This document shows, in pieces, positions 30,951-63,654 of a DNA stretch of 64,000 nucleotides. Source of the DNA: Steroidobacteraceae bacterium (lineage in GTDB: Bacteria > Pseudomonadota > Gammaproteobacteria > Steroidobacterales > Steroidobacteraceae); contig JASGLD010000001.1 in assembly GCA_049840395.1 (NCBI GenBank), positions 612,366 through 676,365 of the forward strand. Direction: 5' to 3'. The translations under genes were made by a program, and so were the position numbers. Numbering within the stretch: the first letter of the stretch is position 1; each line of letters starts with the position of its first letter. Under the pieces are notes generated by a model. It was not told the DNA's origin and did not search any database. It was given only the letters and a program-made list of their open reading frames with translations.

Positions 30951-31022
30951 CGCAAGGTAGCTAAGTTGGGAAAGCAAATGGTTAGTAACCATTAGTCGAG
31001 GGTTCGAATCCCTCTCTTGCAG
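30951..31022 (+). tRNA. tRNA-like gene with canonical cloverleaf invariants but anticodon AGT and a C1/A72 mismatch (possible pseudo- or atypical tRNA)
   Basis: Hand-folded cloverleaf. Acceptor CGCAAGG/TCTTGCA, U8, A14, G18G19, A21. Anticodon stem AATGG/CCATT with loop TTAGTAA. T-arm GAGGG-TTCGAAT-CCCTC. Confidence 0.35.
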
Positions 31023-31029
31023 CGACTTA

Positions 31030-32741: not shown

Positions 32742-33245
32742 TCAGTTCTTTTTCTTTTCGGGATATTGGTAGCTGGTTGATTCTGCATATTGATTGATAT
32801 TTCCATCCGGCTTGTACGAGACTTTGGTCTCGATGACTTGCACATGGTCGCCAAAGTACTGATAGGCGGTCAGTCCAACAACCTGGTTTCCGGAATAGAG
32901 GTATTCACGCAATGGTTTTTTGAAACCAAGGCTGGTTGGATTTTTATCTATTTCCTTTATTACCTTGCCACCAGGTTCGGTCACAAATTCGATATAGCCG
33001 TTGTCCTGAGACACCGCCAGAGCGACCAGTCGTGGATCATTGAGCGCAGGTTTTGCGTCTGGCACACCTGAAGTCGAATTGAGTTGCACGTCGGCAGTCG
33101 GTACAACCGATTTACCCTCTGTTCTGCTGCTGGCTTTAGACTCGGGTGACGTGGGGGATTCATCAAGCGAGTCGCTGCCAAGATAAGTAATACCCACGGC
33201 CGCAGCCACCAGAATCACCGCGCCGGCGATAAGCGTTTTTCTCAC
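32742..33245 (-). CDS. Hypothetical membrane-anchored/secreted protein
   Basis: 167 aa with an N-terminal TM (LIAGAVILVAAAVGITYL). It has lower GC than its surroundings. Confidence 0.5.
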   Translation of the reverse strand: MRKTLIAGAVILVAAAVGITYLGSDSLDESPTSPESKASSRTEGKSVVPTADVQLNSTSGVPDAKPALNDPRLVALAVSQDNGYIEFVTEPGGKVIKEIDKNPTSLGFKKPLREYLYSGNQVVGLTAYQYFGDHVQVIETKVSYKPDGNINQYAESTSYQYPEKKKN

Positions 33246-33261: not shown

Positions 33262-35370
33262 TCACTGTTTAACGAACGTTATGCTGTCGACCCATGCAGC
33301 ATCGGCGCCCGAACTTCCGCTGCTGTCTTTCTGATATCGCCATTCAACATCATGCATGCCGAACGTGAGCGTTACCGTCTGTCGAGTCCATTGACCATTG
33401 GTTGCAATCAGGGATGTCCATTCCGAACCATCGATAAACAGCATCAGCCGATCGCAGCAACTCTCGGCATCAACTTTGGCGTAGTAACTGAGCTGGCCGG
33501 CCGAGAAGGGGGCTCGAAATCGAATGCTGCTGTATTGCGAGTTGCCGACCGCTCCGGATCGGATGCTCTTGGAGCCGGCATAAGCCGTTGTGGAATCGAG
33601 AATCCAACCGGCGCTGCTGTCTCTAGGTACGCTCCAGCCCGCCGCGCTGGAATTGGTTTCAAAAGATTCGCTGTAATTGACGAGAGGTTGCGGCAGCACT
33701 GACGAGTTATTGGGATCGCCGCCGAATAGCACTTCATCCTGGTCGTTATAGCCATCGCCGTCCGTATCTTTGTTCCAGGGATTGGTGTGATAGGTGATCA
33801 CTTCTTCCTTATCGTTCAAGTCATCGCCGTCGCTATCTGCTGCGGCCGGGTTGGTGGAGTAAGTGACAATCTCCTGATAGTCGGTGAGTCCATCAGCATC
33901 CGAGTCGACCAGCGTGGGATTGGAGTTGTGCAGATACTCCGCTGCATTGCTGACACCATCGCCATCCAAATCGGTGAGTGCATCTGCCGCATTCGAATCG
34001 CTGAAGCCATACAGCTGCTCCCACCACTTCGGCATCGAATCCTGATCTTGATCGCTGAAAGCCAGCTTGGTGAATGTGGTTGTATTGTTCACCACCTGTA
34101 CCAGATAGGCCTCTGATTGGCCGAATACCAGTCGAATGGGCTGCCCTGAGTACTGGTAGCTCGCCAGCACTGCGCGGCTGTCTTTATCTCGTATCTCAAC
34201 CAGATCGTAGATATCGAGGCTAACCAGTACGTTATCTTTCCATGCAACGTCCTTGATGGTCCGGCCCAGGTTTGCCGACCACGTCAGTCCGTTCTGGTTG
34301 TAGATGTCGCCGCTGCCGAGGAATACCTGCTGACCAGTGGGCGATACTCGGATCGGCGGTACGATGCTGTACGTCCCATGATAGGGCGTCTCACCGGCGG
34401 AGGTGATTTTGCCGGTGACCTGGTCGATCACTTCATAGTGAAGATCGGCGGGACTTTGGTCATCGCGGAAGAAGTAAACGCGCGAGTTCACCGCATCCCA
34501 CGCATACTCTCTCGAGTAGTAGTTCCACTCTTTCAGATCCATCAATATGCCGTTGCTGTTGAACACGTAGTGGCTCGACCATGCGCCGCTGGCGTCCTGT
34601 GCCAGCACGAACTTGCCCACTGCGGCTAAACCGTTTACAGCCAATGCGGTAGACGTGAAAGGAGTTTCGGCAGGGTTGCTCGATAGCACATCGATGTACT
34701 GAATGGCGCCGGTGCTATACCCCAGGTACAGCCGCTTATGGTCGCTCGAATAGGCCATCTTGGCAGGGGCGATCGTAGCGAAGCCTTGATTGATCCCGAC
34801 GATATAGGGATTGAGATAGGCGCCTGTCGCAATCGACCAGCGATATACGCGCTTGTTGGCAATGCTTAACAGATAGACCATATCGCCGTTGTTAATGACT
34901 TGGTCGGGTATGTAGTTCGGCACCGTGGCGCTGTAGTTACAGACCGTGCCATTGCCGTGCGACAGTAAGTAACAGGCCGAATCTTGTGGATAGGCATCCA
35001 GGCTCAACCCGGTGGTGCTGTCGCTCTGGCTCTTGCCGGCATTCCACGCATCTGGATAGCCGTCGTGATCGGTGTCCACCGATGCCGCTGCATCCAGGGG
35101 GAACGCATCCTGCGTGTTAGGTACACCATCGCCGTCGCTGTCGTCATTGGGGATGTAAGTATAAAACTGCACGGTGCCGTTATTGATGGTCAGTACCGCC
35201 ATCCTGGTATCCGAACCCACTACACGCAGTGCCTGGCCGGTATAGGTCAACTGTTCCAGATTGGTCAGGTTGGCTGCCAAACGTCGCAAGGTGGTTTGAC
35301 CGCTGGCCGTGGTCAGCGTTACCAGCGAGCCGTTGGCGGACCAGCGTGCATCGGTCACTTGCGATCCCAA
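33262..35370 (-). CDS. Distal part of a giant modular surface lipoprotein/adhesin gene; it reads through in frame from 38910 except for one TAA at 35473-35475
   Basis: Same frame as the upstream ORF. Module sequence (beta-propeller-like plus thrombospondin type-3 Ca-binding DxDxDGxxD repeats) continues uninterrupted. Ends in a unique ~170-aa C-terminal domain. Confidence 0.7.
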   Translation of the reverse strand: MGSQVTDARWSANGSLVTLTTASGQTTLRRLAANLTNLEQLTYTGQALRVVGSDTRMAVLTINNGTVQFYTYIPNDDSDGDGVPNTQDAFPLDAAASVDTDHDGYPDAWNAGKSQSDSTTGLSLDAYPQDSACYLLSHGNGTVCNYSATVPNYIPDQVINNGDMVYLLSIANKRVYRWSIATGAYLNPYIVGINQGFATIAPAKMAYSSDHKRLYLGYSTGAIQYIDVLSSNPAETPFTSTALAVNGLAAVGKFVLAQDASGAWSSHYVFNSNGILMDLKEWNYYSREYAWDAVNSRVYFFRDDQSPADLHYEVIDQVTGKITSAGETPYHGTYSIVPPIRVSPTGQQVFLGSGDIYNQNGLTWSANLGRTIKDVAWKDNVLVSLDIYDLVEIRDKDSRAVLASYQYSGQPIRLVFGQSEAYLVQVVNNTTTFTKLAFSDQDQDSMPKWWEQLYGFSDSNAADALTDLDGDGVSNAAEYLHNSNPTLVDSDADGLTDYQEIVTYSTNPAAADSDGDDLNDKEEVITYHTNPWNKDTDGDGYNDQDEVLFGGDPNNSSVLPQPLVNYSESFETNSSAAGWSVPRDSSAGWILDSTTAYAGSKSIRSGAVGNSQYSSIRFRAPFSAGQLSYYAKVDAESCCDRLMLFIDGSEWTSLIATNGQWTRQTVTLTFGMHDVEWRYQKDSSGSSGADAAWVDSITFVKQ

Positions 35371-35472
35371 CGATCCGGACCAGGTCAGTCCGTTCTGGTT
35401 ATAGATGTCGCCGCTACCGAGCAGAACGTACTGGCCGTTTACCGATACGCGAATGGGTGCCTGGATATTGTA

Positions 35473-38400
35473 TTAGCCGTGATAGGGTGTTTCGCCGGCA
35501 GAAGTAATTTTGCCGGTGACTTGATCGATCACTTCGTAGAGCAGATCGTTGGGGCTGATGCCATCGCGGAAGAAGTACACGCGCGAGTTCACCGCATCCC
35601 ATGCATGCTCGCTTGAGTAATAGCTCCCGGTTTGATCCGTCAGGACTTTACTGCTGTTGTATACGTAGTGATTTGCTGCATAGCTGCTGCCATCTTGAGC
35701 CAGCAAGAACTTGCCCGCAGCGACCAGGCCGGTTACGGCCATTGCCGTATTGGTAAACGGAATTTCGACTGGGCTGTTCGATAAGACGTCGATGTACTGA
35801 ATGGCACCCGTGCTATATCCCAAGTACAAGCGCTTGTGGTCACTTGAGTAAGCCATCTTGGTCGGTGCCAGCGTACTAAAGCCCTGATTGATGCCGACGA
35901 CATAGGGATTGAGATAGGCGCCTGTCGCAATCGACCAGCGATATACGCGCTTGTTGGCCGCGCTCAGCAGATAAATGGTGTCGCCATTATTGACGACCTG
36001 GTCCGGTACGTAATTAGGCAGAGTGGCGGCGTAGTTGCAGGTCGTGCCATTACCATGCTGAGGCAGGTAGCAAGCTGAGTCTTGCGGGTATGCATCCAAA
36101 CTCAATCCGGTGGTGCTATCGCTCTGGCTCTTGCCGGTGTTCCAGGCGTCTGGATAGCCGTCGTGATCGGTGTCCACCGATGCGGCAGGATCCAGTGGAA
36201 ACGCATCCTGCGTATTGGGTACACCATCGCCATCGCTATCGTCATTCGGGACATAGATATAGAACTGCACGGTGCCGTTATTAATGGTCAGCACCGCCAT
36301 CTTGGTATCCGAGCCCACGACACGCAGCGCCTGGCCGTTGTAAGTCAACTGTTCCAGGTTGGTTAAAGTGGATCCCAAGCGACGCAGTGTGGTCTGGTTG
36401 CTAGCTGTGGTCAGTGCCACCAGCGAGCCATTGGCGAACCAGCGTGCGTCGGTCACCTGCGATCCCAGCGAGCCCGACCAGGTCAATCCAGTTTGATTGT
36501 AAATATCGCCGCTGCCGAGCAGCACGTACTGACTGTTCGCTGATACTCGTATCGGCGGTTGGATGGAGTAAGCGCCATGATAGGGAGTCTCACCCACCGA
36601 GGTGATCTTGCCGGTGGTTTGATCGATCACTTCATAGTGCAGATCGTTGGGAACAGTGTCATCACGGAAGAAGTACACGCGGGAGGTGGTGGCATCCCAG
36701 GCATACTCTCTTGAGTAATAGTTCCAGTCTTTTTGATCGGTGACGACGGCATTGCGATCGAATATGTAGTGAGTCGCCCATGCGCCGCTGCTGTCCTGCG
36801 CCAGCACGTACTTGCCTACGGCCGTCAGACCACGGATGCTCATCGCCGTGCTGGCAAAGGGAATCTCCGCGACACTTGTCGAGGTCACATCAATGTATTG
36901 AATGGCGCCGGTGCTATACCCCAGGTACAGACGTTTGTGATCGCTGGAGTAAGCCATCTTGATGGGGGCCAGCGTGCTGAGGCCCTGATTGATGCCGACC
37001 ACATAGGGATTGAGATAGCTCGCAGTGGCAAGGGACCAGCGATACACGCGCTTGTTGGCGGTGCTTAGCAGATAAACCGTATCGCCATCGTTGATCACCT
37101 GATCCGGTATGTAATTGGGCATGGTGGCGCCGTAATTACAGTTCACGCCATCGCCATGCTGCGGTAGATAGCAGGCGGAATCTTTCGGATACGCATCCAG
37201 CGTCAAGCCGGTGGTGCTATCGCTCTGCGTTTTGCCGGGGTTCCAGCTATCCGGATAGCCATCCCCATCTGTGTCCAGCGATGCCGCAGGGTCCAGTGGG
37301 AATGCATCCTGCGTGTTGGGCACGCCATCGCCATCGCTGTCGTTATTGGGAATGTAAATATAAAACTGCACGGTGCTGTTATTGATCGTCAGCACCGCCA
37401 TCTTGGTGTCCGAACCCATTACGCGCAGCGCCTGGCCGTTGTAAGTCAACAGTTCCAGGTTGGTCAGAGTGGGCCCCAGGCGACGCAGCGTGGTCTTGTT
37501 GCTGGCTGTGGTCAGTGTCACCAGCGAGCCATTGGCGAACCAGCGTGCATCGGTTACTTGCGACCCCAGAGAGTCCGACCACGTCAATCCGGATTGGTTG
37601 TAAATATCGCCGCTGCCGAGCAGGACGTACTGACCATTCACCGACACGCGGATGGGCGGCAGGATGTTGTACGAGCCGTGATAGGGAGTTTCACCGGCGG
37701 AAGTAATCTTGCCGGTGACCTGGTCAATCACTTCATAGTGCAGATCGTTGGGACTTTGGGCATCGCGGAAGAAGTACACCCGTGAGTTGGCGGCATCCCA
37801 GGCGTACTCTCGTGAATAGTAGTTCCAGTCTTTTGAATCCGTCACCGTGCCAGTGCTATTGAACACATAGTGGGTTGCCCATGCACCGCTGCCGTCCTGC
37901 GCCAGCATGAACTTGCCCACGGCTGTCAGGCCACGAACGCTCAGTGCCGTACTGGCAAACGCGACTTCGGCGGTATTCGTGGACGTAACATCAATATATC
38001 GAATCGCCCCGTTGTCATAGCCAAGATACAAGCGCTTATGGTTGCTCGAGTAACTCATCGTGATTGGGGGCAAGCCATTGAAGCCGGTGGTATAGGCATC
38101 CAGATAGCGTTCTTGAGCAAGCGACCACCGAAAAATCAGGTTGTTGGCATTGTTCAATAGATAAACGATGTCTTGATCGTCATAAACCACTTTGTCAGGC
38201 ACATAGTTTGGCAGCTCGGACATGACCTCGAAGGTGCCGGCGACCGAACCGACGGTGACGCGCACCTGGGTTGTTTTCGCATAAGTTGCGGCCGCCTTTA
38301 CTCTGACGATCAATGTTTGCGCAGTACCGATCGTTCCGGCTGCGCTGGTAAACGATCCGCCATTGATTGAATACTCGCCGTTTTCAATGCTGATCGGCGC

Positions 38401-38910
38401 CGGAGCATTGGTGCCCGCAATGATTACGCTGTTCGATGTGATCCATGCGCCACGTATTGCGTTAAAGCTTTTTTGAAAAGAGAACGCATCGGGCGTGGTA
38501 TCTGCCTCCAGGGTGGTGGCAGTAAAGGTTGCGGATATGCCGCCCACAGTCAGCACGGCACTGCGCGCCGTAGAAAACTGATTCGAAGAAGTCAGGCGAA
38601 CTGTGATCTTCTGATTGTTGGTAACAGAGCCTGCGGCAGCGGTAAAAGCGCCGGCATCAATCGAATACTCTCCGCCTGTTATCGAAACCGGTGTGCTCGC
38701 ATCAATGCCGGAGATGACAGTCTCATTGGAGGTGACGGTGCTCGATAAGGCCGTTCCAGACTGGGCACTGAAGGAAAAAGCATTGGGTGTTGTATCTGGT
38801 GGGGCTGGGGTTTGACTCTGGCTGCTGCTCTCTCCACCAGCGCCGCCACCACAGCCAAACAGAAGAGCGAATAGTCCGAGCGCAATCAAACGAAAAATCA
38901 GCTTCGCCAT
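35473..38910 (-). CDS. Giant modular surface lipoprotein/adhesin, N-terminal 1145 aa
   Basis: Lipobox (LLFGCGGG). Two ~95-aa Ig-like domains, then ~330-aa modules with TSP3-type motifs (DSDGDGVPNTQDAFPLDPAASxDTDxDGYPD). The modules are nearly identical at nucleotide level. Confidence 0.8.
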   Translation of the reverse strand: MAKLIFRLIALGLFALLFGCGGGAGGESSSQSQTPAPPDTTPNAFSFSAQSGTALSSTVTSNETVISGIDASTPVSITGGEYSIDAGAFTAAAGSVTNNQKITVRLTSSNQFSTARSAVLTVGGISATFTATTLEADTTPDAFSFQKSFNAIRGAWITSNSVIIAGTNAPAPISIENGEYSINGGSFTSAAGTIGTAQTLIVRVKAAATYAKTTQVRVTVGSVAGTFEVMSELPNYVPDKVVYDDQDIVYLLNNANNLIFRWSLAQERYLDAYTTGFNGLPPITMSYSSNHKRLYLGYDNGAIRYIDVTSTNTAEVAFASTALSVRGLTAVGKFMLAQDGSGAWATHYVFNSTGTVTDSKDWNYYSREYAWDAANSRVYFFRDAQSPNDLHYEVIDQVTGKITSAGETPYHGSYNILPPIRVSVNGQYVLLGSGDIYNQSGLTWSDSLGSQVTDARWFANGSLVTLTTASNKTTLRRLGPTLTNLELLTYNGQALRVMGSDTKMAVLTINNSTVQFYIYIPNNDSDGDGVPNTQDAFPLDPAASLDTDGDGYPDSWNPGKTQSDSTTGLTLDAYPKDSACYLPQHGDGVNCNYGATMPNYIPDQVINDGDTVYLLSTANKRVYRWSLATASYLNPYVVGINQGLSTLAPIKMAYSSDHKRLYLGYSTGAIQYIDVTSTSVAEIPFASTAMSIRGLTAVGKYVLAQDSSGAWATHYIFDRNAVVTDQKDWNYYSREYAWDATTSRVYFFRDDTVPNDLHYEVIDQTTGKITSVGETPYHGAYSIQPPIRVSANSQYVLLGSGDIYNQTGLTWSGSLGSQVTDARWFANGSLVALTTASNQTTLRRLGSTLTNLEQLTYNGQALRVVGSDTKMAVLTINNGTVQFYIYVPNDDSDGDGVPNTQDAFPLDPAASVDTDHDGYPDAWNTGKSQSDSTTGLSLDAYPQDSACYLPQHGNGTTCNYAATLPNYVPDQVVNNGDTIYLLSAANKRVYRWSIATGAYLNPYVVGINQGFSTLAPTKMAYSSDHKRLYLGYSTGAIQYIDVLSNSPVEIPFTNTAMAVTGLVAAGKFLLAQDGSSYAANHYVYNSSKVLTDQTGSYYSSEHAWDAVNSRVYFFRDGISPNDLLYEVIDQVTGKITSAGETPYHG

Positions 38911-41525: not shown

Positions 41526-42323
41526 ATGCCTGGGTCCAATGCCGGCGCTGTTTTCTTGGTAGTCATCCAGCTTGAGACGCATCCAATGACCCAATCCCTA
41601 TCCACCCGCTTCCCCCTCACCGCCAAGTACGATCCCAACTGGATTCGCGACAACGCCATGGGCGAGAACGCGCTATGCCAGGTTGAATCGCTGGCGCGAC
41701 GCCTGCCGCTGCGTCCCGGCATGCGCATTCTGGATCTCGGCTGCGGCAAGGCAACCAGTTCGATTTTCATGGCGCGTGAATTCGGTGTGCAGGTGTGGGC
41801 GGTGGATGAGGGCACCTCGCCCACCGAGAACCGCAAACGCGCCCTCGACATGGACTGCGAGACCAATGTGTTGCCGCTGCGGCTGGATGCGCACCATCTG
41901 CCCTTCGCCAAAGAAAGCTTCGATGCCGTGATCGCCATCGACTCGTACCTCTACTACGGCACGGATGATCGCTACCTGGCCTATATCGCGCAGTTCATCA
42001 AGCCCGGCGGCTTCATCGGCATCGTGGACATTGCCTTCACCCGCGAGCTGTACGGCATCGACGATGCGCCGCCGTTCCTGCGTGCGCAGTACGCCAAACA
42101 TTGGTCCTATGTACACAGCATCGACTGGTGGCGGAACCACTGGGAGAAAACCGGACTGGTGGAAGTGCAATGCGCCGAGCTGCTACCCGAGAGCGATGAG
42201 CTGCTGCGCGACTACGTGCTGGATCGTCCGCCCGAGCAGGATGAGGATTCGATCATGCGCGCGGTGCCGCGCGATCATGAGGGGTTGCTGGCGTTGTTTT
42301 GTTTGGTGGGGCGGAAGGGTTAG
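41526..42323 (+). CDS. Class I SAM-dependent methyltransferase
   Basis: Motif I (ILDLGCGKA) and post-I acidic residues. Genome-typical GC. Confidence 0.8.
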   Translation: MPGSNAGAVFLVVIQLETHPMTQSLSTRFPLTAKYDPNWIRDNAMGENALCQVESLARRLPLRPGMRILDLGCGKATSSIFMAREFGVQVWAVDEGTSPTENRKRALDMDCETNVLPLRLDAHHLPFAKESFDAVIAIDSYLYYGTDDRYLAYIAQFIKPGGFIGIVDIAFTRELYGIDDAPPFLRAQYAKHWSYVHSIDWWRNHWEKTGLVEVQCAELLPESDELLRDYVLDRPPEQDEDSIMRAVPRDHEGLLALFCLVGRKG

Positions 42324-42334
42324 TGATTGCAAAT

Positions 42335-42362
42335 ACCCCCGGCCCGGCGATGTTGCTTATCG
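42335..42362. repeat. Truncated right end of the ~150-bp cassette-array repeat (AAATACCCCCGGCCCGGCGATGTT), marking the left edge of the accessory island
   Basis: Same terminal motif as repeat copies A, B and D. It sits 12 bp after the methyltransferase stop. Confidence 0.55.
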
Positions 42363-42376
42363 AAGATATTGCTCCG

Positions 42377-44659
42377 TTAAAAAGGAATGTCGTCATCAAA
42401 CTCGTCGGTTCTGTCTTCGATGACAGGATTCTGGTCAATGATGGGTCTAAATTCCTGCAGGGCCAACGGGGGATGCGCTGCGCGAAACGTGGTTCGAAAC
42501 TCGCTTTGATCATTCAGTCGAATGAGAACGGGATTTTCGCAACTTGAAGCTTTTCCAAAGAAGACTGCATGTCGTTCTGGCAGTGAAGATAATGTGCTTG
42601 CGTAATCGCGCCCAATGTAATTAGCCAAGAATTCCTTTCCTGTTTCATCGAATGTCCGCATGGCAAACACTGTGTTGCATTGATTAAGGATTGTCTTTGT
42701 AACGTTAGCGGTACGCTGAGTTATTAATAAACACCCAAGCCCATACTTTCTCCCTTGTAGAATGGCACGAGCTGTTCCGCTGGTTGCATTCTTGTCACCT
42801 TCATTTACTACGGAGTTCCACTCCGGGATCAACGAGTGAGCCTCTTCATATACAAGGCAAACGCGGGCTGTCGGCGACATTTTGGTGGAAAGAACCGAAA
42901 GAGTTGATTCTGAAATTATTTGCGTAATTTCAACGGGCGTCACTGAGAATAGTCCGGCACGACTTCGCCACTCGTTACCTACTTTGTACTGGCTTGGTTC
43001 GCGTTGCTGTTTTGTTGCGACGAAGCTTGACGGGTTATATATCTTGAGCGGACGATTATTGTTATCGCTTAAAAAGTCAGAAATATCTGCGTAAATGGCA
43101 TCGCGCAGATTGGGTAATGATCCGCCATGCTCCGGATTGTTATCTAGCTCTTCACGATCTTTCTCAGAGGCTGCTTGTAGCTTCGCTAAGCAATGCTCTT
43201 CATAAGTGGAATCGTAAAAGTCATTCAATTCTTGTTCGTATTGATTCGTAAGGTCAAGACAAATGACCTTTATGCCTTCCGCCATGATTCGTTCAATCAA
43301 TTCGATGGCTAGCATTGATTTTCCAATGCCAAGAATTCCTAGAATAGCGGTGTTGTGTGTAACTAGATCGCTGATGCTCTTAATCTTTGCATGGAAGTTA
43401 GTCTCAGGAAAATGGCCAACCGAATTTATATTAACTTGGTATTCGGATCGCTTTTCAAGATATACGGGAGTGTTCAGTGTAGGTAACCAATTGCATTGCG
43501 AGAACTTAGAAAAGGCGTCATTCCAAACGCCGATTTGCTGCGCTTGTCCTCGCAAATATCCATAAGTATTCTTTTGTTGAACAATTTCTTCTTTTGTTAG
43601 GCCACCTACTATCTGATAGAGCACCTTATTTTGCCCAACCTTAGTAGAGACTAGACGTCCCTCCTCAAGCTCTGAGTTTTGGACTATCTCAAAGTATAGT
43701 CGCTCTATTGTCGTGTCTGGGGCGACCAAGCCAACTATGCTGGTTTGAGAATCTCTGGATAAGTTCTCAATACGGCAGATTTTATCGAGTATGTCGTCCT
43801 TAAGTTTATATACAGTCTCGTCTATAGGTGAGGCATCGATAGCTGAGTTACTTACTGCTGATAGATTTTTTAGTTCCACCGCACGAATAAGGATGCCTTC
43901 TGCCCGACCTACAAAATCCAAGGCGGCGACAAGCTTTTTTGGGCCGTGCTTATCACTGATATAAAGTAGGTCATATTTATTAATATCTCCTTCATGCTGT
44001 TGGCGAAGCAGCACAATTCCTGGATCTTGGAAAGCAACTACTTCGCCAATAGCGCCGTCGAAAACGTTGTTCGTGAATGTGCGCTTTATTTTATTAAATC
44101 CGCCAACTGTAAAATTTCCAAGCGACCACCAAACAGTTGTTCCGGTAACCATGCCTATAACGACTGCCTCTATCCAAGACTCTGCGTGAAAGCAAAAAAT
44201 TGAAAAAAGAACCAAGGGGGTATAGATGTACTCAGGCTGGCCGATTAGATCGAGTCCTATTCGGATTTTATTCGAAAGTTCTTTAGCCCACTCTGCATGC
44301 GAAGAATTTAGAGAAATGGTGAGGATGCCAAAGAACCCGACGACGAGGCTCGGTGCCATTGCTAGAACAAATCCCCATTGTTGATTAGCCGACCAGATGG
44401 GCCATTTGTTGACAAGTAATAGTGATATTGCTGCCGGTATCGCGTACGAAATTGCATCTACTGGTTTTACGTAGAATGGGGTTGCTAGTTTTGAACCTAT
44501 TAGCACTGAGAGTAGAGCTGAATATGCCCAAAAGCCCTTGTCACCCAAAGGCGGATATGGTGTGCCAAACAGGTAGTTGCATGCTATGAACACAACAATC
44601 AAGTCGATGCATAGTGATAAAAGGCGCTGTGGCTGGGTCAGTGCGAAATCTTTTTTCAT
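42377..44659 (-). CDS. HerA/FtsK-superfamily (DUF87-like) P-loop ATPase with an N-terminal polytopic membrane domain; low GC, likely horizontally acquired
   Basis: 760 aa. ~6 TM helices, a central beta-rich region, Walker A GILGIGKS, Walker B LVYEEAH and a HerA-type C-terminal motif LLITQRTANVTKTILNQCNTVF. GC is far below neighbours. Confidence 0.85.
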   Translation of the reverse strand: MKKDFALTQPQRLLSLCIDLIVVFIACNYLFGTPYPPLGDKGFWAYSALLSVLIGSKLATPFYVKPVDAISYAIPAAISLLLVNKWPIWSANQQWGFVLAMAPSLVVGFFGILTISLNSSHAEWAKELSNKIRIGLDLIGQPEYIYTPLVLFSIFCFHAESWIEAVVIGMVTGTTVWWSLGNFTVGGFNKIKRTFTNNVFDGAIGEVVAFQDPGIVLLRQQHEGDINKYDLLYISDKHGPKKLVAALDFVGRAEGILIRAVELKNLSAVSNSAIDASPIDETVYKLKDDILDKICRIENLSRDSQTSIVGLVAPDTTIERLYFEIVQNSELEEGRLVSTKVGQNKVLYQIVGGLTKEEIVQQKNTYGYLRGQAQQIGVWNDAFSKFSQCNWLPTLNTPVYLEKRSEYQVNINSVGHFPETNFHAKIKSISDLVTHNTAILGILGIGKSMLAIELIERIMAEGIKVICLDLTNQYEQELNDFYDSTYEEHCLAKLQAASEKDREELDNNPEHGGSLPNLRDAIYADISDFLSDNNNRPLKIYNPSSFVATKQQREPSQYKVGNEWRSRAGLFSVTPVEITQIISESTLSVLSTKMSPTARVCLVYEEAHSLIPEWNSVVNEGDKNATSGTARAILQGRKYGLGCLLITQRTANVTKTILNQCNTVFAMRTFDETGKEFLANYIGRDYASTLSSLPERHAVFFGKASSCENPVLIRLNDQSEFRTTFRAAHPPLALQEFRPIIDQNPVIEDRTDEFDDDIPF

Positions 44660-44699
44660 ATGGTTTATCCGTAACCTCTCAGATACTTAATAGCCCGCT

Positions 44700-44880
44700 C
44701 CGCGGATGTCGCCGGGTCGGGGGATTGGGAGTATTTATCGAGCACACTGCGAGAGAGTGTAAAGCTACACTTTAACTATTTTTAAATCACCCGATCCACA
44801 GACTCGTCATTACGTTCTCGCGCTCCGCGCACCGCGGGCTCCGAGGAGCCCGCTGCACGACTCAGGGGATCGGGTCAATC
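44700..44880. repeat. attC-like/cassette-boundary palindromic region
   Basis: CCGCGGATGTCGCCGGGTCGGGGG and GGGCTCCGAGGAGCCC palindromes, related to the repeat ends elsewhere in the array. Confidence 0.4.
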
Positions 44881-44881
44881 A

Positions 44882-45166
44882 TCAACCCGCCTCAACCAGC
44901 GGCCGGATATAAACCGAATCCAAACGATTCACCGACTCTCGAACGAGGGTCATGGCGATCTCTACGACATCCGGAAAATAGCCCTGTTGTTTTGGGTCGC
45001 TGTCATCGGCGTATTCAAGCGCCACATACAGACATTGAAGTAAAGATTGCGCTTTTGAAAGCTGGGTGCGCTCGGCTTCAATCGCTTCGTGTAACGCTTG
45101 GTGACGGGAATTGTGAATAGAGTTTTTGGAAAGACGCTGTTTCGAAGTAGAATTTCGCTTAGCCAT
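44882..45166 (-). CDS. Cassette-like small hypothetical protein (94 aa)
   Basis: ORF bounded by repeats. No recognisable domain. Confidence 0.45.
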   Translation of the reverse strand: MAKRNSTSKQRLSKNSIHNSRHQALHEAIEAERTQLSKAQSLLQCLYVALEYADDSDPKQQGYFPDVVEIAMTLVRESVNRLDSVYIRPLVEAG

Positions 45167-45530
45167 GGTGACCTCGTTGATAGGTGACTTTGGTTAGGCG
45201 TTCGTCTCGGTGACAGCCGGGGCGGACGCCGCTTTTTGTGGGCTGTTCGTGCCGCGTGAATTCCCAAAATGCCTGGAGCAATCCGTGTCGGCGGCATGAG
45301 CTAATCCCCACACAATCATGCCAGATAACTGTATGGATAACCAGCTAAAAAGCTTAAGTGAATTCAATTCATCGGCGCGCAACTTCAGTTAAAACTTTTC
45401 TACTTCTTTATCTGCAAACTGAAAATCAACATCACGCTCATCGGGTTGTGATGTTTGGGAGCGAATGACTACATAAATACCTACGGATCGACGGCCCGGT
45501 GATGCTGACCGCCGGGGTACACTCCATTCA

Positions 45531-46067
45531 CTACGTGCAACGACTAAACGCTAGTCTTAATGCCGTTCCAATTTCTCCATGTGTACTAATTGCAGGAATC
45601 TTCAAATGCTGCTCGTCTGCGATTCCTCTATTTGAATATTCTTCAAGCCCCTCATAATGACTTGGCACAATCATGATTATTCCATCAGCCTGGGAGATAC
45701 TGCAGCTTTTCATGTCCTTAAAAAGTGCACGACGTGAGCGATAACCATACTTCTTAACTTGTTGCTCAATGCATCTATTGTAGTGGTTACTTGATTCATC
45801 ACGTATCTCCTCCGCCTGCTTGAGACTAAAGAAACGAGTTTTGTCTAGGGCGGAAACAATTGCTTGGCCCAGTGCATCATCAAGGCTACTCACCGATATA
45901 TCGACCGGCGCATACAATGGATCAGGCTGCCCCATGCGATAGGCAGAGTATGTCCACACTGATATGAATTTACTACTTGACGTCGCTATCGCTTGTTTTT
46001 CTCTAATTGGATCGAGAACAGTCGGACTAAATAGCGACGTCACTTTTTTCCTAATTTTCTCTAGCAT
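45531..46067 (-). CDS. Cassette-like hypothetical protein (178 aa), low GC
   Basis: A palindromic GC-rich repeat (ACGGCCCGG...CCGCCGGGGT) lies immediately downstream of the stop. Confidence 0.6.
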   Translation of the reverse strand: MLEKIRKKVTSLFSPTVLDPIREKQAIATSSSKFISVWTYSAYRMGQPDPLYAPVDISVSSLDDALGQAIVSALDKTRFFSLKQAEEIRDESSNHYNRCIEQQVKKYGYRSRRALFKDMKSCSISQADGIIMIVPSHYEGLEEYSNRGIADEQHLKIPAISTHGEIGTALRLAFSRCT

Positions 46068-46218
46068 TGAACGATCCTATTAGTCAGGCCTCCAAGAGTT
46101 ATTATTAATATACACCGGCACACCCCGTACTGGGTTGCTCTTCAAACCACCGTCATAATTAACTGCCCGCTGAATTTGCTGAATCTGCACAGCAGGAGTT
46201 TCCGCACACGACAACGGT

Positions 46219-46362
46219 GCTGGGCCGTCGGATCGGGGATTCAAGAAGAATAATCGAGAACTGACTTCGTCTACTTCACAAGATGCTTTCATCTCGCGGC
46301 ACTTAAGCAACTGCAGTTGATATATATCAAATACCCCCGATCCCCCGGCCAGGCGATGTTCT
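46219..46362. repeat. ~150-bp cassette-array repeat, copy A (attC-like)
   Basis: Shares ~80% identity with copies at 46951-47098, 51041-51198 and 52803-52957. Ends CCGGCCAGGCGATGTT. Spurious ORF 46080..46487 is its translation. Confidence 0.65.
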
Positions 46363-46532
46363 GTTCTCCCCGAAGGGAGCGAGACGATTGGGTAAGGCGA
46401 GAGGCATAGAACCGGAAGTACAAAGCAGTGCGGCGGCAGCGCTTGATCATCGAGCGCACATTGACCGACAATGTTCTGAGCGACCATTAAAATCGCAGCT
46501 TAGTCGCAAGCAGCACTCAGGGAGATAAAGAG

Positions 46533-46946
46533 ATGCCTACGCTCGAGCCCGTCGAATTAAAAGCATTCATCCCGGCAAAGGACTACCAACTTTCAATCCA
46601 ATTTTACCAAGACCTCGGTTTTACCTTGTGCTGGGGAGGCGAAGGCGAGCTTGCCTACTTCCATTACGGCGACCATGGCAATCACGGCAAAGTCGGTTTC
46701 CTGCTGCAACGTTTCTACGTCAAAGAATTCGCAGAAAACCTCATGATGCATCTCATCGTCAAAGACCTCGATGCATGGTGGGCGAACGTGCAAGATAAAA
46801 ATTTGGCGGAGAAATACGGCGTGAGAACGGAGCCGCCTGAGCTTCGGCCATGGGATATGACGGACTGTGTTATTTGCGATCCGTCGGGGGTTTTATGGCG
46901 GATCGCACAGGAAGATCAAGGAGAGGATTGGCGCGAACCGGCTTAG
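46533..46946 (+). CDS. VOC family (glyoxalase/bleomycin-resistance-like) protein; the only plus-strand cassette gene
   Basis: 137 aa with a beta-alpha-beta-beta-beta VOC-like pattern. A common integron cassette function. Confidence 0.65.
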   Translation: MPTLEPVELKAFIPAKDYQLSIQFYQDLGFTLCWGGEGELAYFHYGDHGNHGKVGFLLQRFYVKEFAENLMMHLIVKDLDAWWANVQDKNLAEKYGVRTEPPELRPWDMTDCVICDPSGVLWRIAQEDQGEDWREPA

Positions 46947-46950
46947 CAGT

Positions 46951-47098
46951 CGACATCGCCGGGCCGGGGGAGGGGACTCAAGAAGAGTAATCGAGAACTG
47001 ACTTCGCTTACTTCACAAGATGCTTTCGTCTCGCGGCACTTAAGCAACTGCAGTTGATATATATAAAATACCCCGATCCTCCGGCCCGGCGATGTTCA
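46951..47098. repeat. ~150-bp cassette-array repeat, copy B (attC-like)
   Basis: Terminal inverted repeats CATCGCCGGGCCGG ... CCGGCCCGGCGATG. It lies directly below the stop of 47109..47573. Confidence 0.65.
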
Positions 47099-47108
47099 CG
47101 TAGCATGT

Positions 47109-47573
47109 TCATAGGAGCGTAAGCACTCCATCCTCTATCGAGAACGGAGCGTCATTGACCGCAGTGATCTTTCCGTCGAAAGACAAACAAAGTTTGTGTT
47201 CGGGGTCCCAGCGGGGATCGACATGAATGCTGGCAAAGAGGTCTGAGTGAACGTTAAGAATGGCTGCTCCGACTTCGGTCAGCACCTGGGACCTAGCTAG
47301 GCCAGAGGGAACCTTCCAAAATCGAAGCCAATCGTTGGTCTCGGCATGCTTGTAGTGCCCATATATCAAATCCCAAATTTGCGAACCGTGAGTCTCGGCG
47401 AATGCCGCAAGCCTAGCCGCTAGATTGACCATCGCTTCAGTCGGCAAGGTCTCAATGTCGCAGTAAAGCTCAACGGGTAAAATACCAATCTCCGTCTCGA
47501 CGGAGTGTTCCCAAAGCCAGGTATCAAAGAGAGCTGGCCCGCGAGGTTGCTTGTGAAATTCAGAGAGCCGCAT
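47109..47573 (-). CDS. Cassette-like hypothetical protein (154 aa)
   Basis: ORF immediately upstream (in gene orientation) of repeat copy B. Confidence 0.6.
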   Translation of the reverse strand: MRLSEFHKQPRGPALFDTWLWEHSVETEIGILPVELYCDIETLPTEAMVNLAARLAAFAETHGSQIWDLIYGHYKHAETNDWLRFWKVPSGLARSQVLTEVGAAILNVHSDLFASIHVDPRWDPEHKLCLSFDGKITAVNDAPFSIEDGVLTLL

Positions 47574-47693
47574 AGTTTGAGTGAGCCACAGAATGAGACG
47601 CCCAACGCTGCTGATAAGCCGACGCGAAAGAGCGTAGCGATTGAGCGGTCGAACGACCGGAGGGAGTGAACTTGATTGGCTGGTTAGGTGCCT

Positions 47694-47927
47694 TCATGAC
47701 TTGGAGAGCGCAATAAACCATTTTTCAGGGTGCTTCGGGCATAACAGTTGTCCAGCCTCATCTTTCTTTCCTTCGCGGACAAGTTGAACAACTTTGTGAG
47801 CTTCCAGATGCCTTGGAATCTCAGGAAGTGATTCATTACAACAAGCAGCCAGCACGACATCGCGCAGGCGATACCAATCAGTTGACGATAAATCCGTATC
47901 GTTGAAACCACTGCTCATAGCGGGCAC
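47694..47927 (-). CDS. Possible small cassette ORF (77 aa)
   Basis: Only ORF in the 47.6-48.1 kb gap. Weak support. Confidence 0.3.
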   Translation of the reverse strand: MPAMSSGFNDTDLSSTDWYRLRDVVLAACCNESLPEIPRHLEAHKVVQLVREGKKDEAGQLLCPKHPEKWFIALSKS

Positions 47928-61725: not shown

Positions 61726-62442
61726 TTATGGCTTCAGACCAACAATGTAGTCGGTGAGTTTCTGCAACACTTCTGCCCGCCATTCGCCGTGATCCTCCCG
61801 GTCGGGATCGGGCGACAGCCAGGTGACGGCCTTGTCGGCATCCTTGATGGCGTCACGCAGGTTCTTAATGTGTTCAATATTGAATTCACGAGGGTGTGTT
61901 GCCAGCCACACTTTATTGGGCAGGCTGGCCGCCCAACTGCTGACTTCTACCGGGGTTGCAATATTGGTGCTGTCCAATCCCATAAAACCCAGGTAGCGAA
62001 TGCGCATGACCGTTTCGGTCTTCTGGCGATTGTCGATGTTGATATCGGTGTTGAATAAATCCTGAGCGGTGGCCACGGGGTTGATGGCCGTCACACAGGT
62101 CAGTGCATTGTCCATGCTGGCGGCGGCTGCCAGAGCCACGTAACCGGCGCGATCATGGCCATAGGTGCAGATGGGCAACGCTGGATATTGTTTGCGCAGG
62201 GTGCGCGCGACCTCGGCTATGGCTGCGGCGGATGATTTCTGCCAGGCAGCAAAGGCATCTTTGGTGTTGGTAGCCGGAAACGCCAGAGGTACGTTGACCA
62301 CGCGTAATCCCAGTTGCGTGAAGACATGTAGATCCTCGGAAAATAAATTGGGAAATGTGGGGTCGCCGGAACGACTGACGTTAATACTTGGAACAATGAC
62401 CATGCCGCGTGCTGCGCTTTTGTTCGCCGGTTCGTAGATCAA
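61726..62442 (-). CDS. C-terminal alpha/beta-hydrolase domain of an S9-peptidase-like gene; in frame with 62470..63654 across a single TGA
   Basis: Same frame as the upstream ORF, separated by TGA at 62470-62472 plus 9 codons. The nucleophile-elbow position reads GHDRAG (Asp instead of Ser). Confidence 0.55.
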   Translation of the reverse strand: MIYEPANKSAARGMVIVPSINVSRSGDPTFPNLFSEDLHVFTQLGLRVVNVPLAFPATNTKDAFAAWQKSSAAAIAEVARTLRKQYPALPICTYGHDRAGYVALAAAASMDNALTCVTAINPVATAQDLFNTDINIDNRQKTETVMRIRYLGFMGLDSTNIATPVEVSSWAASLPNKVWLATHPREFNIEHIKNLRDAIKDADKAVTWLSPDPDREDHGEWRAEVLQKLTDYIVGLKP

Positions 62443-62469
62443 TACCGGCGCCTCCGGATTGATCAGCGA

Positions 62470-63654
62470 TCAATTGGTCTGCGGTGTGACCAGCGCGATG
62501 CTGGTTAGTGCAGGATGCAGGTCCGCAGTGCGAATCAATTTGCCGCGTTGCATATCGAAGATGACAAAAGACTCTGGATCGGAGAGGCTTTGTACGCTAA
62601 GCAGCAGGCGTTGCAGATTGTCGCTGGCGCCGATGACGGACAGGCGATAGCCCTCAAAACTTTTCTGCACGGCTTCGGTGGCGGCACGAATCTGCTCATT
62701 GAGCGCCATGAAGCGCACGCCGCTGTCGGTAGCCAGTTCGGCGCCGAACAAGCGTTCCGAATTGGTGGTGCGCACCGGTGCGACCGTGCTGCCGTAGCGG
62801 TCATACAGTTTCTGGAATTGTTGGACCTCGACACTGTTGGCTTCACTATCGCCGGCCACTTGTTTACCGATGTATTCGGCTAATGGCGATTCCAGCTTCT
62901 GTGGGTCTTCGCTTTGCCAGCCTAGTGTGCTGCCCGGTTCAAAGTAGCTGGCGACCAATTGTCCACCGGGTGTACGCGCCAGCACATGAATGATGTCGTT
63001 GCGATCGGTGAAGAAACGATCGACATAGCCATCGTAACTGGGAGCGGCAATGCGCGTTTTGTGATTGTTGACATCCCAGGCGCTGAAACAGATTTTAGGT
63101 ATCTGTTGAGTATCCACTACGTACTTCGCAGTGCAATCAAGCGCTCGCATCAGGATTTCATCCTTGTCGCCCCAGTGTGCATCGATCATGACGCCCTGGC
63201 TGGAGCCGCCAATGGTGCGCACTTTCTTGGCGGTCACATCCCATTCGGCCATGCCGCCCGAGGTGCTGGCGATAAGCTGCGTATCCGTGCGCCATACATA
63301 GTTATTGACGCGATAGGTATCGACGCTGCGCAGTGCCGGTACGATGCCGGCATCGGTGACTTCAAAGATAACCAGGCCGCTATAAGCCTCGCCTTTGTTC
63401 TTGGCATAGACATTCGCCGCCAGATACTTGCCGCTTGGGGATAATTTCGGGTCGCTGAGCTGCTGCGTTTGGGTAAAGGCCAACGCGATCGAGTCGGCGG
63501 CAACTCCGGATGTGGTATGCAGACAACTCAATAAAGCCAGTGCCGTGGCCCAGAAGGTTGAATGAGCGATACGACGATAAAGTTTGCCGGTCACGGATCC
63601 GTTTAGAGAACTACCGCAGGTCATCATGAGCGCCCCCTTATCCTTGTTCTGCAC
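62470..63654 (-). CDS. N-terminal signal peptide plus beta-propeller domain of an S9-peptidase-like protein
   Basis: Signal peptide and propeller-like repeats. Continuous with 61726..62442 except for the in-frame TGA. Confidence 0.6.
   Translation of the reverse strand: MQNKDKGALMMTCGSSLNGSVTGKLYRRIAHSTFWATALALLSCLHTTSGVAADSIALAFTQTQQLSDPKLSPSGKYLAANVYAKNKGEAYSGLVIFEVTDAGIVPALRSVDTYRVNNYVWRTDTQLIASTSGGMAEWDVTAKKVRTIGGSSQGVMIDAHWGDKDEILMRALDCTAKYVVDTQQIPKICFSAWDVNNHKTRIAAPSYDGYVDRFFTDRNDIIHVLARTPGGQLVASYFEPGSTLGWQSEDPQKLESPLAEYIGKQVAGDSEANSVEVQQFQKLYDRYGSTVAPVRTTNSERLFGAELATDSGVRFMALNEQIRAATEAVQKSFEGYRLSVIGASDNLQRLLLSVQSLSDPESFVIFDMQRGKLIRTADLHPALTSIALVTPQTN

What the first reader, a model, noticed from the sequence alone, without database searches (positions are those of the whole stretch)
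33262..38910. Giant (~1880-codon) modular surface lipoprotein gene interrupted by one in-frame TAA
- ORFs 35473..38910 and 33262..35370 are in the same frame.
- Their junction reads ...ETPYHG*YNIQAPIRV... where sister modules have HG(S/A/T)Y(N/S)I.PPIRV. This points to a single TCA/GCA-to-TAA substitution at 35473-35475.
- The protein carries a lipobox, two Ig-like domains, about 6 near-identical ~330-aa modules and a distinct C-terminal domain.
- Each module ends in a thrombospondin type-3 Ca-binding motif (DSDGDGVPNTQDAFPLD...DTDGDGYPD).

It is either a freshly inactivated adhesin, an assembly collapse in kb-scale repeats, or a stop that is read through.
Basis: seen in the sequence. Interest (0 to 1): 0.6.

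Follow-up and report, generated by a model that had tools for sequence, protein, structure and literature searches.

The report
Nonsense-interrupted four-propeller lipoprotein gene
One large gene for a lipid-anchored envelope protein, made of four beta-propeller domains, is cut in two by a single TAA stop codon that no relative has; this is an ordinary fresh nonsense mutation or a base-call error in a metagenome assembly, not a new biological mechanism.

Summary
The core observation holds. ORFs 35473..38910 and 33262..35370 (minus strand) share one frame and are separated by one TAA at 35473-35475. Read through, they give 1,882 aa that align end to end with single-ORF orthologs of 1,867-1,896 aa, which carry S/A/T/D/N at the stop position.

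Several details were wrong. There are four modules, not about six. Each is about 366 aa, not 330. They are 54-81% identical in protein and 68-79% in DNA, so not near-identical.

Each module is a 7-bladed beta-propeller (AF2 pLDDT 88) followed by a DxDxDG Ca-binding-type linker. The C-terminus is a TSP3 repeat run plus a CBM/MAM-like jelly-roll (pLDDT 94). A conserved 167-aa partner gene follows 16 nt downstream.

- **Assembly collapse is rejected.** The longest exact repeat is 57 nt and the module count matches the orthologs.
- **Programmed read-through is unsupported.** The stop occurs only in this MAG, TAA is the commonest terminator in the window (18 of 47), and the context is TAA-T.
- **The downstream ORF is not a separate gene.** It starts inside a propeller, with no signal peptide and no Shine-Dalgarno match.

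A second gene in the window (TGA at 62470-62472) is split the same way, while the Pfam-matched housekeeping genes show complete domain matches. What remains is a recent real nonsense mutation (favoured) or a consensus error. Only the reads can decide. Interest is low.

The parts
33262..38910 (-). Whole interrupted gene: 1,882 sense codons, one internal TAA and a terminal TGA. GenBank annotates it as two genes, QM808_02925 (1145 aa) and QM808_02920 (698 aa), in a Steroidobacteraceae MAG.
   Evidence: collinear with 1867-1896-aa orthologs
35473..35475 (-). In-frame TAA (followed by T), codon 1146. It lies between invariant Gly and Tyr of the PYHG-x-Y motif, in the loop after blade 4 of propeller 3.
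   Evidence: orthologs have S/A/T/D/N here
38851..38910 (-). Signal peptide with lipobox-like LFGC (Cys20), followed by a Gly-rich tether.
   Evidence: orthologs have LAGC/LTAC/LSGC followed by a poly-Gly run
38212..38796 (-). Two tandem ~97-aa N-terminal repeats (DTTP[ND]AFSF...). The fold was not tested.
   Evidence: no Pfam family; found in 12 related loci
37342..38211 (-). Module 1: 7-bladed beta-propeller.
   Evidence: AF2 pLDDT 88.4, 27 strands; Foldseek matches YncE, YVTN and WD40 propellers
37120..37341 (-). Linker 1: DSDGDGVPNTQDAFPLD...DTDGDGYPD, then a C...C segment. It has TSP3-type DxDxDG motifs.
   Evidence: invariant D291, D293, D295, G296, D313, D315, D317, C347, C358; the model is low-confidence here
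36241..37119 (-). Module 2 propeller.
36019..36240 (-). Linker 2.
35143..36018 (-). Module 3 propeller, which carries the TAA.
34921..35142 (-). Linker 3.
34051..34920 (-). Module 4 propeller, the most divergent (54-60% aa identity to the others).
33706..34050 (-). Run of bacterial TSP3 repeats.
   Evidence: PF18884 E=1.2e-15, 57.5 bits against a cut-off of 25, 4 stretches
33265..33705 (-). C-terminal beta-jelly-roll domain, CBM/MAM-like, with the conserved ...IEWRY...AAWIDDV.F ending.
   Evidence: AF2 pLDDT 94; Foldseek matches CBM22, CBM61, CBM16, CBM35, MAM and VesC, E down to 6e-7, TM about 0.55; conserved in 30 loci
32742..33245 (-). Conserved 167-aa partner ORF, 16 nt downstream. It has an N-terminal hydrophobic anchor and a ~95-aa conserved C-terminal domain; function unknown.
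   Evidence: tblastn hits directly downstream of the giant gene in 13 related loci, 36-60% identity; no Pfam family

Best explanation
This is a single gene for a ~1,882-aa lipoprotein.

**Architecture.** Lipid anchor and Gly-rich tether, then two ~97-aa repeats, then four units of 7-bladed beta-propeller plus Ca-binding-type DxDxDG linker, then a TSP3 repeat run, then a CBM/MAM-like jelly-roll. It is co-transcribed with a conserved 167-aa partner.

**The event.** In this MAG the gene carries one recent nonsense substitution. The most parsimonious change is Ser TCA to TAA, which is G to T at plus-strand position 35474.

**Consequence (inferred).** Translation stops after residue 1145. The product keeps the anchor, the N-terminal repeats and two complete propellers. 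It ends in four of the seven blades of propeller 3, which cannot close, and it lacks propeller 4, the TSP3 run and the conserved C-terminal binding domain. That amounts to loss or severe reduction of function, possibly with polar effects on the partner gene. The 698-aa 'second gene' in GenBank is an annotation artefact.

**Shown.** One ancestral gene; the stop is unique to this MAG; no decay downstream of the stop; the domain folds.

**Inferred.** That the base call is real. That the protein is a cell-envelope or surface ligand- or carbohydrate-binding protein. The effects of truncation.
For: - **One gene.** The read-through protein aligns over ~1,870 positions at 53-59% identity with ten single-ORF orthologs of 1,867-1,896 aa, and at 40% with a 1,850-aa one. 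Module starts match (P0005: 233/598/965/1332 against 234/598/965/1331 here).
- **Stop unique to this MAG.** None of the 120 best homologs ends at PYHG except this MAG's own P0004; P0057 is cut a few residues later by a contig end. In 66 genome loci the family gene is one ORF, apart from 5 loci broken by frameshifts. L052 is a true tandem pair with its own lipobox.
- **Recent event.** The 736 codons after the stop are open. At 55 family-conserved columns, modules 3 and 4 deviate at only 1-2, against a family mean of 5.9. GC3 is 0.65 upstream and 0.66 downstream.
- **Downstream ORF not autonomous.** The first candidate starts are TTG and GTG, 35-39 codons after the stop, inside a propeller blade. 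There is no AGGAGG-like Shine-Dalgarno sequence and no hydrophobic leader; the first ATG is at aa 1237. No promoter-like site was found.
- **Assembly not indel-ridden.** LigA, ZipA, ScpB, RluB, PurU, the ABC transporter, the histidine kinase and others give complete Pfam domain matches. That argues against a noisy assembly.
- **The second in-frame stop also sits in an uncharacterised, probably exported protein**. This is where real nonsense alleles are tolerated.
- **Folds.**
- **Partner gene.**
Against: - No read-level or independent-assembly evidence exists for the base. A DNA search of metagenome contigs with the stop region found nothing. No protein above 79% identity to the junction region exists in the 5.8-billion-protein database.
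- Two lone substitution-type stops in 64 kb, both with fully conserved downstream sequence, would also be expected from consensus substitution errors.
- The source is a MAG with a 998,785-bp contig. That suggests long-read assembly, and the error profile is unknown to me.
Confidence: 0.55

Rival explanations
1. Consensus or base-call error in the MAG. The real organism has a sense codon (Ser, Ala or Thr type) and an intact 1,882-aa gene, and the TAA is an artefact of assembly or polishing. The same would apply to the TGA at 62470-62472.
For: - Both interrupted genes show no downstream decay. The second gene is 81% identical to its intact homolog before the stop and 84.6% after. The giant gene's downstream modules are as well conserved as the upstream ones.
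- There are two such events in about 55 genes.
- The source is a MAG with a ~1-Mb contig.
- Several other long-contig MAGs carry error-like breaks in this same family (L024, L033, L045, L054, L067).
Against: - Those other MAGs are broken by frameshifts, the usual long-read error. This window shows no frameshift in the Pfam-matched genes checked.
- TAA cannot arise from mis-polishing with reads from the sister modules, whose codons are TCG, GCT and ACG.
- Both hits fall in uncharacterised envelope proteins and not in the many housekeeping genes. With n=2 this is weak evidence.
Confidence: 0.35
2. Programmed read-through or recoding. The TAA is decoded as a sense codon, or suppressed, at a useful rate, so the full-length protein is made.
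For: Only the intact, well-conserved downstream frame and the presence of a second in-frame stop in the window.
Against: - The stop is not conserved in any of the ~120 homologs or 66 genome loci.
- TAA is the most used terminator in the window, at 18 of 47 genes, and all three stop codons terminate genes, so there is no codon reassignment.
- The second stop is a different codon (TGA), so two separate suppressors would be needed.
- The only tRNA in the window is Thr(AGT).
- The context is TAA-T, the strongest termination tetranucleotide in E. coli (my own knowledge: Poole, Brown & Tate 1995).
- A +1 shift at the stop runs into another TAA after 12 codons (read by hand from the sequence), and the conserved downstream sequence lies in the zero frame.
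Confidence: 0.03
3. Assembly collapse or mis-join within kilobase-scale repeats created the junction.
For: The gene holds four tandem ~1.1-kb repeats. Short-read assemblies of relatives do break inside this gene (L003/P0057 ends at a contig end).
Against: - The modules are only 68-79% identical in DNA, and the longest exact repeat is 57 nt.
- The period is regular at 1098/1101/1101 nt.
- Module number and positions are the same as in orthologs.
- The flanks of the stop align in register with the sister modules and with orthologous module 3, with no indel.
Confidence: 0.02
4. These are two genuine genes: a 1,145-aa lipoprotein and a separately translated 698-702-aa protein, as GenBank annotates them.
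For: The GenBank annotation. Family members with 1-3 modules exist.
Against: - The upstream product would end in the middle of a propeller, after blade 4 of 7.
- The downstream ORF begins inside a blade, with a TTG or GTG start, no Shine-Dalgarno match, no signal peptide and no promoter-like site.
- Natural short family members keep the C-terminal TSP3 and jelly-roll domains and their own lipobox.
- No homolog has this split.
Confidence: 0.02

Closest known systems
Bacterial pseudogenes or nonsense alleles with an 'internal stop', as flagged in genome annotation
   Same: A single in-frame stop lies inside a region homologous to intact orthologs. The frame is otherwise intact and the gene is accessory or envelope-related.
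   Different: Here the annotation pipeline called two genes instead of a pseudogene. The reality of the base is unverified because the source is a MAG.
YVTN / YncE / WD40-type 7-bladed beta-propellers (PDB 1l0q archaeal S-layer YVTN propeller, 3vgz E. coli YncE, WDR5)
   Same: The fold is the same. Foldseek gives E about 1e-10 to 1e-11, and TM is 0.58 normalised to the query and 0.65 to the target for YncE. There are 27 strands in seven blades.
   Different: Sequence identity is only 10-17%. No Pfam propeller family reaches both its cut-off and a significant stretch. Here the propeller is tandemly repeated 1-8 times per protein, with DxDxDG linkers. The family has 429 clusters (at 50% identity) at E<=1e-30.
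Myxococcus TSP3-repeat envelope proteins CglD, MtsD and MtsC (NCBIfam NF033765, NF047639, NF047638)
   Same: They share bacterial thrombospondin type-3 Ca-binding repeats. CglD's NCBIfam name also calls it a lipoprotein.
   Different: Scores are far below the family cut-offs: 28 against 800, 19 against 400 and 16 against 350 bits. The matches are confined to the TSP3 stretch. This protein is not a member.
Carbohydrate-binding modules CBM22, CBM61, CBM16 and CBM35, and MAM domains (beta-jelly-roll)
   Same: The C-terminal 147 aa are predicted with pLDDT 94 as the same jelly-roll fold, with Foldseek E of 6e-7 to 4e-5.
   Different: TM is only about 0.45-0.56 and identity 12-23%. There is no sequence-family match. 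Ligand-binding residues were not examined, so carbohydrate binding is only a lead.
Programmed stop-codon read-through or reassignment (phage and viral leaky stops, reassigned-code lineages)
   Same: There is an in-frame stop with conserved coding sequence downstream.
   Different: The stop is not conserved, the codon is used normally as a terminator, and the context favours termination.

Membership tests
Nonsense-interrupted gene (pseudogene or truncation allele) | An in-frame stop inside sequence homologous, on both sides, to one continuous ORF in relatives | tested here: met
   collinear with 1867-1896-aa orthologs, which carry S/A/T/D/N at the stop column.
Nonsense-interrupted gene (pseudogene or truncation allele) | The stop is truly present in the organism's DNA | not testable with these tools
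   No reads are available. There was no independent contig and no protein above 79% identity to the junction region.
Nonsense-interrupted gene (pseudogene or truncation allele) | The downstream part is not independently expressed | tested here: inconclusive
   Sequence only: TTG or GTG starts 35-39 codons downstream, no Shine-Dalgarno match, no signal peptide, no promoter-like site. There are no expression data.
Programmed read-through / stop-codon recoding | The stop is conserved at the same site in orthologs | tested here: not met
Programmed read-through / stop-codon recoding | The codon is not used, or rarely used, as a terminator (reassignment), or sits in a leaky context | tested here: not met
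   TAA ends 18 of 47 genes in the window. The context is TAA-T.
Programmed read-through / stop-codon recoding | A cognate suppressor tRNA or recoding signal is present | tested here: inconclusive
   There is none within the 64-kb window; the only tRNA is Thr(AGT). The rest of the genome was not available.
Assembly collapse in tandem repeats | Repeat copies are near-identical over more than a read length | tested here: not met
   DNA identity is 68-79% and the longest exact repeat is 57 nt.
Assembly collapse in tandem repeats | The copy number or junction is out of register with relatives | tested here: not met
   Four modules at the same positions as in P0005, P0012 and P0020. The junction aligns without indels.
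Bacterial lipoprotein (SPase II substrate) | An N-terminal n-region, h-region and lipobox ending in Cys | tested here: met
   MAKLIFRLIALGLFALLFGC. F at position -2 is outside the strict [ASTVI] set but is allowed by the PROSITE PS51257 rule (my own knowledge). Orthologs have LAGC, LTAC or LSGC. Lipidation itself cannot be tested here.
Bacterial TSP3 repeat (Pfam PF18884) | An HMM match above the gathering score | tested here: met
   C-terminal run: 53.6-57.5 bits against a cut-off of 25. The inter-module linkers show DxDxDG motifs by eye but gave no Pfam hit for the N-terminal 1145 aa.
7-bladed beta-propeller | Seven four-stranded antiparallel blades and structural similarity to solved propellers | tested here: met
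   AF2 pLDDT 88.4, 27 strands. Foldseek probability 1.00 to YncE, YVTN and WD40 propellers. This is a prediction only.
CglD / MtsD / MtsC (NCBIfam equivalogs) | A whole-protein score above the curated cut-off | tested here: not met
   28.2 against 800, 19.4 against 400 and 16.2 against 350 bits.
Carbohydrate-binding module (CBM22/35/61-like) | A jelly-roll fold | tested here: met
Carbohydrate-binding module (CBM22/35/61-like) | Sequence-family membership or a conserved ligand-binding site | tested here: not met
   No Pfam family at E<=5 apart from noise. Binding residues were not analysed.

The most novel reading that the evidence does not exclude
Both in-frame stops in this window are real and are nevertheless decoded, so the full-length proteins are still made. 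These are TAA at 35473-35475 in the four-propeller lipoprotein gene and TGA at 62470-62472 in a 633-aa, probably exported protein gene. Decoding could come from an unusually leaky termination system or from suppressor tRNAs encoded elsewhere in this Steroidobacteraceae genome. That would explain why neither downstream half shows any decay.
Probability: 0.03. Interest if true: 0.6.

Novelty: new member of a known kind. Interest (0 to 1): 0.15.

Why it matters
As a mechanism it matters little. A lone nonsense codon in an accessory envelope gene of a MAG is routine, and the practical result is an annotation correction: QM808_02925 and QM808_02920 are one gene and should be flagged as carrying an internal stop.

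Two by-products have modest value.

1. The gene belongs to a widespread family with no functional annotation in the libraries or papers searched. The family consists of lipoproteins built from 1-8 tandem 7-bladed propellers separated by Ca-binding-type linkers. Many members end in a CBM/MAM-like domain. The closest relatives (13 loci) also carry a small conserved partner gene. It has 429 clusters (at 50% identity) at E<=1e-30 and occurs in Steroidobacteraceae, Cellvibrio, Teredinibacter, Sorangium, Aliikangiella, Thiodiazotropha and others, several of which I know as polysaccharide degraders.
2. Two substitution-type in-frame stops in one 64-kb window flag this MAG for a read-level quality check.

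Tried and rejected
- **Metagenome DNA search.** An exact-pattern search with the stop region, with the codon masked, found 0 hits.
- **Look-up of P0004's contig.** It is not on record, so no more of the MAG could be read.
- **Short junction-spanning protein query.** This was meant to find independent fragments of the same species. The best hit was 79% identical, so there is no independent evidence for or against the base.
- **rRNA operon guess.** I guessed that the ORF-poor, low-GC stretch at 44.6-50.2 kb was an rRNA operon. It is not; Rfam finds only one tRNA in the window.
- **S9-peptidase guess.** I guessed that the second interrupted gene encodes an S9-peptidase-like protein. Pfam and PDB sequence searches of its intact homolog found nothing significant.
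- **Other same-frame adjacent ORF pairs.** The pairs at 16190/17072, 49060/49618 and 52028/52787 were checked; the first two are distinct genes and the upstream ORF of the third has no family match and overlaps a copy of the 145-nt repeat. For 55987/56857, the upstream ORF has no family match and competes with an opposite-strand ORF, so it is unresolved.
- **Relaxed constraint in module 3.** By eye it seemed to carry odd substitutions. At family-conserved columns it has no excess.
- **Internal promoter or start after the stop.** None was found.
- **Literature.** No paper on this protein family or this MAG was identified.


Full report
**Observation.** On the minus strand, ORF 35473..38910 (1145 aa, ATG start) and ORF 33262..35370 lie in the same frame, separated by one TAA at 35473-35475. 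Reading through gives 1,882 sense codons with exactly one internal stop, at codon 1146. The junction is ...GETPYHG*YNIQAPIRV.... The three sister modules read PYHG-S/A/T-Y there, with codons TCG, GCT and ACG.

There are four tandem modules, not about six. They start at aa 234, 598, 965 and 1331, with a period of 1098-1101 nt, which is 366-367 aa. They are 54-81% identical in protein and 68-79% in DNA, and the longest exact repeat in the gene is 57 nt.

**Source.** The two halves are identical to GenBank proteins QM808_02925 (1145 aa) and QM808_02920 (698 aa). These come from a metagenome-assembled Steroidobacteraceae genome, on a 998,785-bp contig. I could not retrieve more of that contig.

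**One gene or two?** The evidence points clearly to one gene.
- The read-through protein aligns collinearly over about 1,870 positions with ten single-ORF orthologs of 1,867-1,896 aa at 53-59% identity, and with one of 1,850 aa at 40%. Those orthologs carry S, A, T, D or N at the stop column.
- Module starts in P0005 (233/598/965/1332) are nearly the same as here.
- Of the 120 best homologs, only this MAG's own fragment ends at PYHG.
- In 66 loci from GTDB species-representative genomes, the family gene is one ORF with 1-7 modules.
- The exceptions are five MAG loci broken by frameshifts, and one locus (L052) that is a true tandem pair in which the second gene has its own start and lipobox.
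- Downstream of the stop, the first possible starts are TTG and GTG, 35-39 codons in. They lie inside a propeller blade, with no Shine-Dalgarno match and no hydrophobic leader. The first ATG is 91 codons in, and no promoter-like site is detected.

So the two-gene annotation is an artefact of the stop.

**What the protein is.**
- **N-terminus.** MAKLIFRLIALGLFALLFGC-GGGAGG is a lipoprotein-type signal peptide. Orthologs have canonical LAGC, LTAC or LSGC followed by poly-Gly.
- **N-terminal repeats.** Two ~97-aa repeats follow (DTTP[ND]AFSF...). They have no Pfam family. 'Ig-like' is therefore untested.
- **Module.** AlphaFold2 on module 1 with 47 homologs gives pLDDT 88.4. The model has 27 strands forming a 7-bladed beta-propeller (residues 1-290), followed by a low-confidence linker. 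Foldseek against the PDB finds generic propellers: E. coli YncE, the archaeal S-layer YVTN propeller and WD40 proteins, at 10-17% identity.
- **Linkers.** They carry invariant DxDxDG-type acidic motifs and two invariant cysteines.
- **After propeller 4.** There is a run of bacterial TSP3 repeats (PF18884, 57.5 bits against a cut-off of 25). Then comes a 147-aa domain predicted at pLDDT 94 as a beta-jelly-roll. It resembles CBM22, CBM61, CBM16, CBM35, MAM domains and the C-terminal domain of VesC, with E of 6e-7 to 4e-5 and TM of about 0.5.
- **Partner gene.** A 167-aa ORF at 32742-33245, with an N-terminal hydrophobic segment, sits 16 nt downstream. It is found directly downstream of the giant gene in 13 related loci, so the two form a conserved pair. 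Its function is unknown.
- **Family size.** The propeller module defines a family of 429 clusters (at 50% identity) at E<=1e-30, with up to 8 modules per protein.

Hosts include Steroidobacter, Cellvibrio, Teredinibacter, Sorangium, Aliikangiella, Thiodiazotropha, Woeseiaceae and Planctomycetes. My inference is that this is an envelope-anchored, Ca-stiffened string of propellers ending in a carbohydrate- or ligand-binding head. That fits the 'adhesin or binding protein' idea, but no assay or annotated relative supports it.

**The stop.** It falls between the invariant Gly and Tyr of the PYHG-x-Y motif, in the loop after blade 4 of propeller 3. A terminated product would keep two propellers, carry an unclosable four-blade stub, and lose the conserved C-terminal domains.

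There is no sign of decay after the stop.
- 736 codons remain open.
- GC3 is equal on both sides.
- At 55 family-conserved columns, modules 3 and 4 deviate at 1-2 positions, against a family mean of 5.9.

The event is therefore either very recent or not real.

**Explanations rejected.**
- **Assembly collapse.** The repeats are too diverged. The period, number and register match orthologs. No sister module has A at codon position 2, so cross-module mis-polishing cannot give TAA.
- **Recoding or read-through.** The stop is unique to this MAG. TAA is the most frequent terminator in the window (18 TAA, 16 TGA and 13 TAG in 47 genes). The context TAA-T is the strongest terminator known in E. coli (my own knowledge). 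The only tRNA in the window is Thr(AGT). A +1 shift at the stop runs into another TAA after 12 codons, as read by hand from the sequence.

**A second case in the same window.** Minus-strand ORFs 62470..63654 and 61726..62469 are also one gene split by a single in-frame stop, this time TGA at 62470-62472. A 626-aa homolog from another MAG (GCA_965188375.1) is 81% identical over the whole length. It is one ORF, has Gln at that site, and is 81% identical before the stop and 84.6% after it.

So the window holds two fresh, substitution-type nonsense codons in about 55 genes. Both lie in uncharacterised proteins with signal-peptide-like N-termini. Meanwhile LigA, ZipA, ScpB, RluB, PurU, an ABC transporter, a hybrid histidine kinase and others give complete domain matches, with no frameshifts.

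This pattern fits real nonsense alleles in dispensable envelope genes. It also fits a low rate of consensus substitution errors.

No independent sequence of this species exists in the collections I could search, so I cannot decide between the two readings. I put about 0.55 on a real recent nonsense mutation, 0.35 on a consensus error, and at most 0.1 on everything else.

**Comparison with the known.**
- The feature is an ordinary internal-stop allele or pseudogene, or an assembly error.
- The protein is not a member of the Myxococcus TSP3 families CglD, MtsD or MtsC, because its scores are far below the cut-offs.
- Its propeller and C-terminal domains match known folds but no curated sequence family.
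- I found no literature on the family.

**Verdict.** The interpretation narrows to 'fresh nonsense mutation or base error'. Novelty is low, and the main outcome is an annotation and quality-control note. The uncharacterised multi-propeller lipoprotein family and its conserved partner are a mildly interesting by-product.

Noticed in passing
window 61726-63654 (-), stop at 62470-62472: A second gene is split by a lone in-frame stop (TGA). Read through, it is a 633-aa protein with a signal-peptide-like N-terminus and no family match. Its 626-aa homolog P0121 (81% identical, from GCA_965188375.1) is a single ORF with Gln at that site, and conservation is equal before and after the stop. GenBank annotates the upstream part as QM808_03065 (374 aa; the ORF is 394 aa from its first GTG).
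   Followed up: yes
window 32742-33245 (-): A 167-aa ORF lies 16 nt downstream of the giant gene. It has an N-terminal hydrophobic anchor and a conserved ~95-aa C-terminal part. It is present directly downstream of the giant gene in 13 related loci (Steroidobacteraceae, Cellvibrionaceae and others), so it is probably an operon partner of unknown function.
   Followed up: partly
window 30951-31023 (+): A tRNA-Thr gene carries the anticodon AGT (ARAGORN; Rfam 59.8 bits). To my knowledge bacterial tRNA-Thr genes normally carry GGT, TGT or CGT. This tRNA also looks AT-rich for a 56% GC genome.
   Followed up: partly
window 46214-46354, 46951-47091, 51043-51183, 52807-52947: Four copies of a ~145-nt repeat (71-82% identity) have a near-invariant core and complementary GC-rich ends (CATCGCCGGGGCCGG...CCGGCCCGGCGATG). 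They lie between small minus-strand ORFs and have no Rfam match. The element could be a MITE-like or cassette-boundary element, or a structured RNA.
   Followed up: partly
window ~42300-53100: This is a low-GC island (47-52% against 55-60% elsewhere). It holds a 760-aa HerA/DUF87-like ATPase (42377-44659) and a string of small minus-strand genes, including a CdiI immunity protein (45531-46067), DUF5063, a TonB_C-domain protein and a GNAT acetyltransferase. It looks like a mobile or orphan-immunity cassette region.
   Followed up: partly
loci L024, L033, L045, L054, L067: In these five MAG loci (three are 'MFD...' bins) the homologous multi-propeller gene is broken into several ORFs by frameshifts. 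This looks like long-read assembly error and contrasts with the clean substitution seen in this window.
   Followed up: no
window 14304-16145 (+): The ScpA-family ORF is 613 aa, and the ScpA domain covers only residues 79-289. To my knowledge ScpA proteins are usually under 300 aa. This may be a C-terminal extension or fusion; I did not examine it.
   Followed up: no
window 55987-56841 (+) / 56857-57666 (+) / 56035-56871 (-): Another same-frame ORF pair is separated by one TAA (56839-56841). The upstream ORF has no family match and competes with an overlapping opposite-strand ORF. The downstream ORF is DUF6152. Whether this is a third interrupted gene is unresolved.
   Followed up: partly
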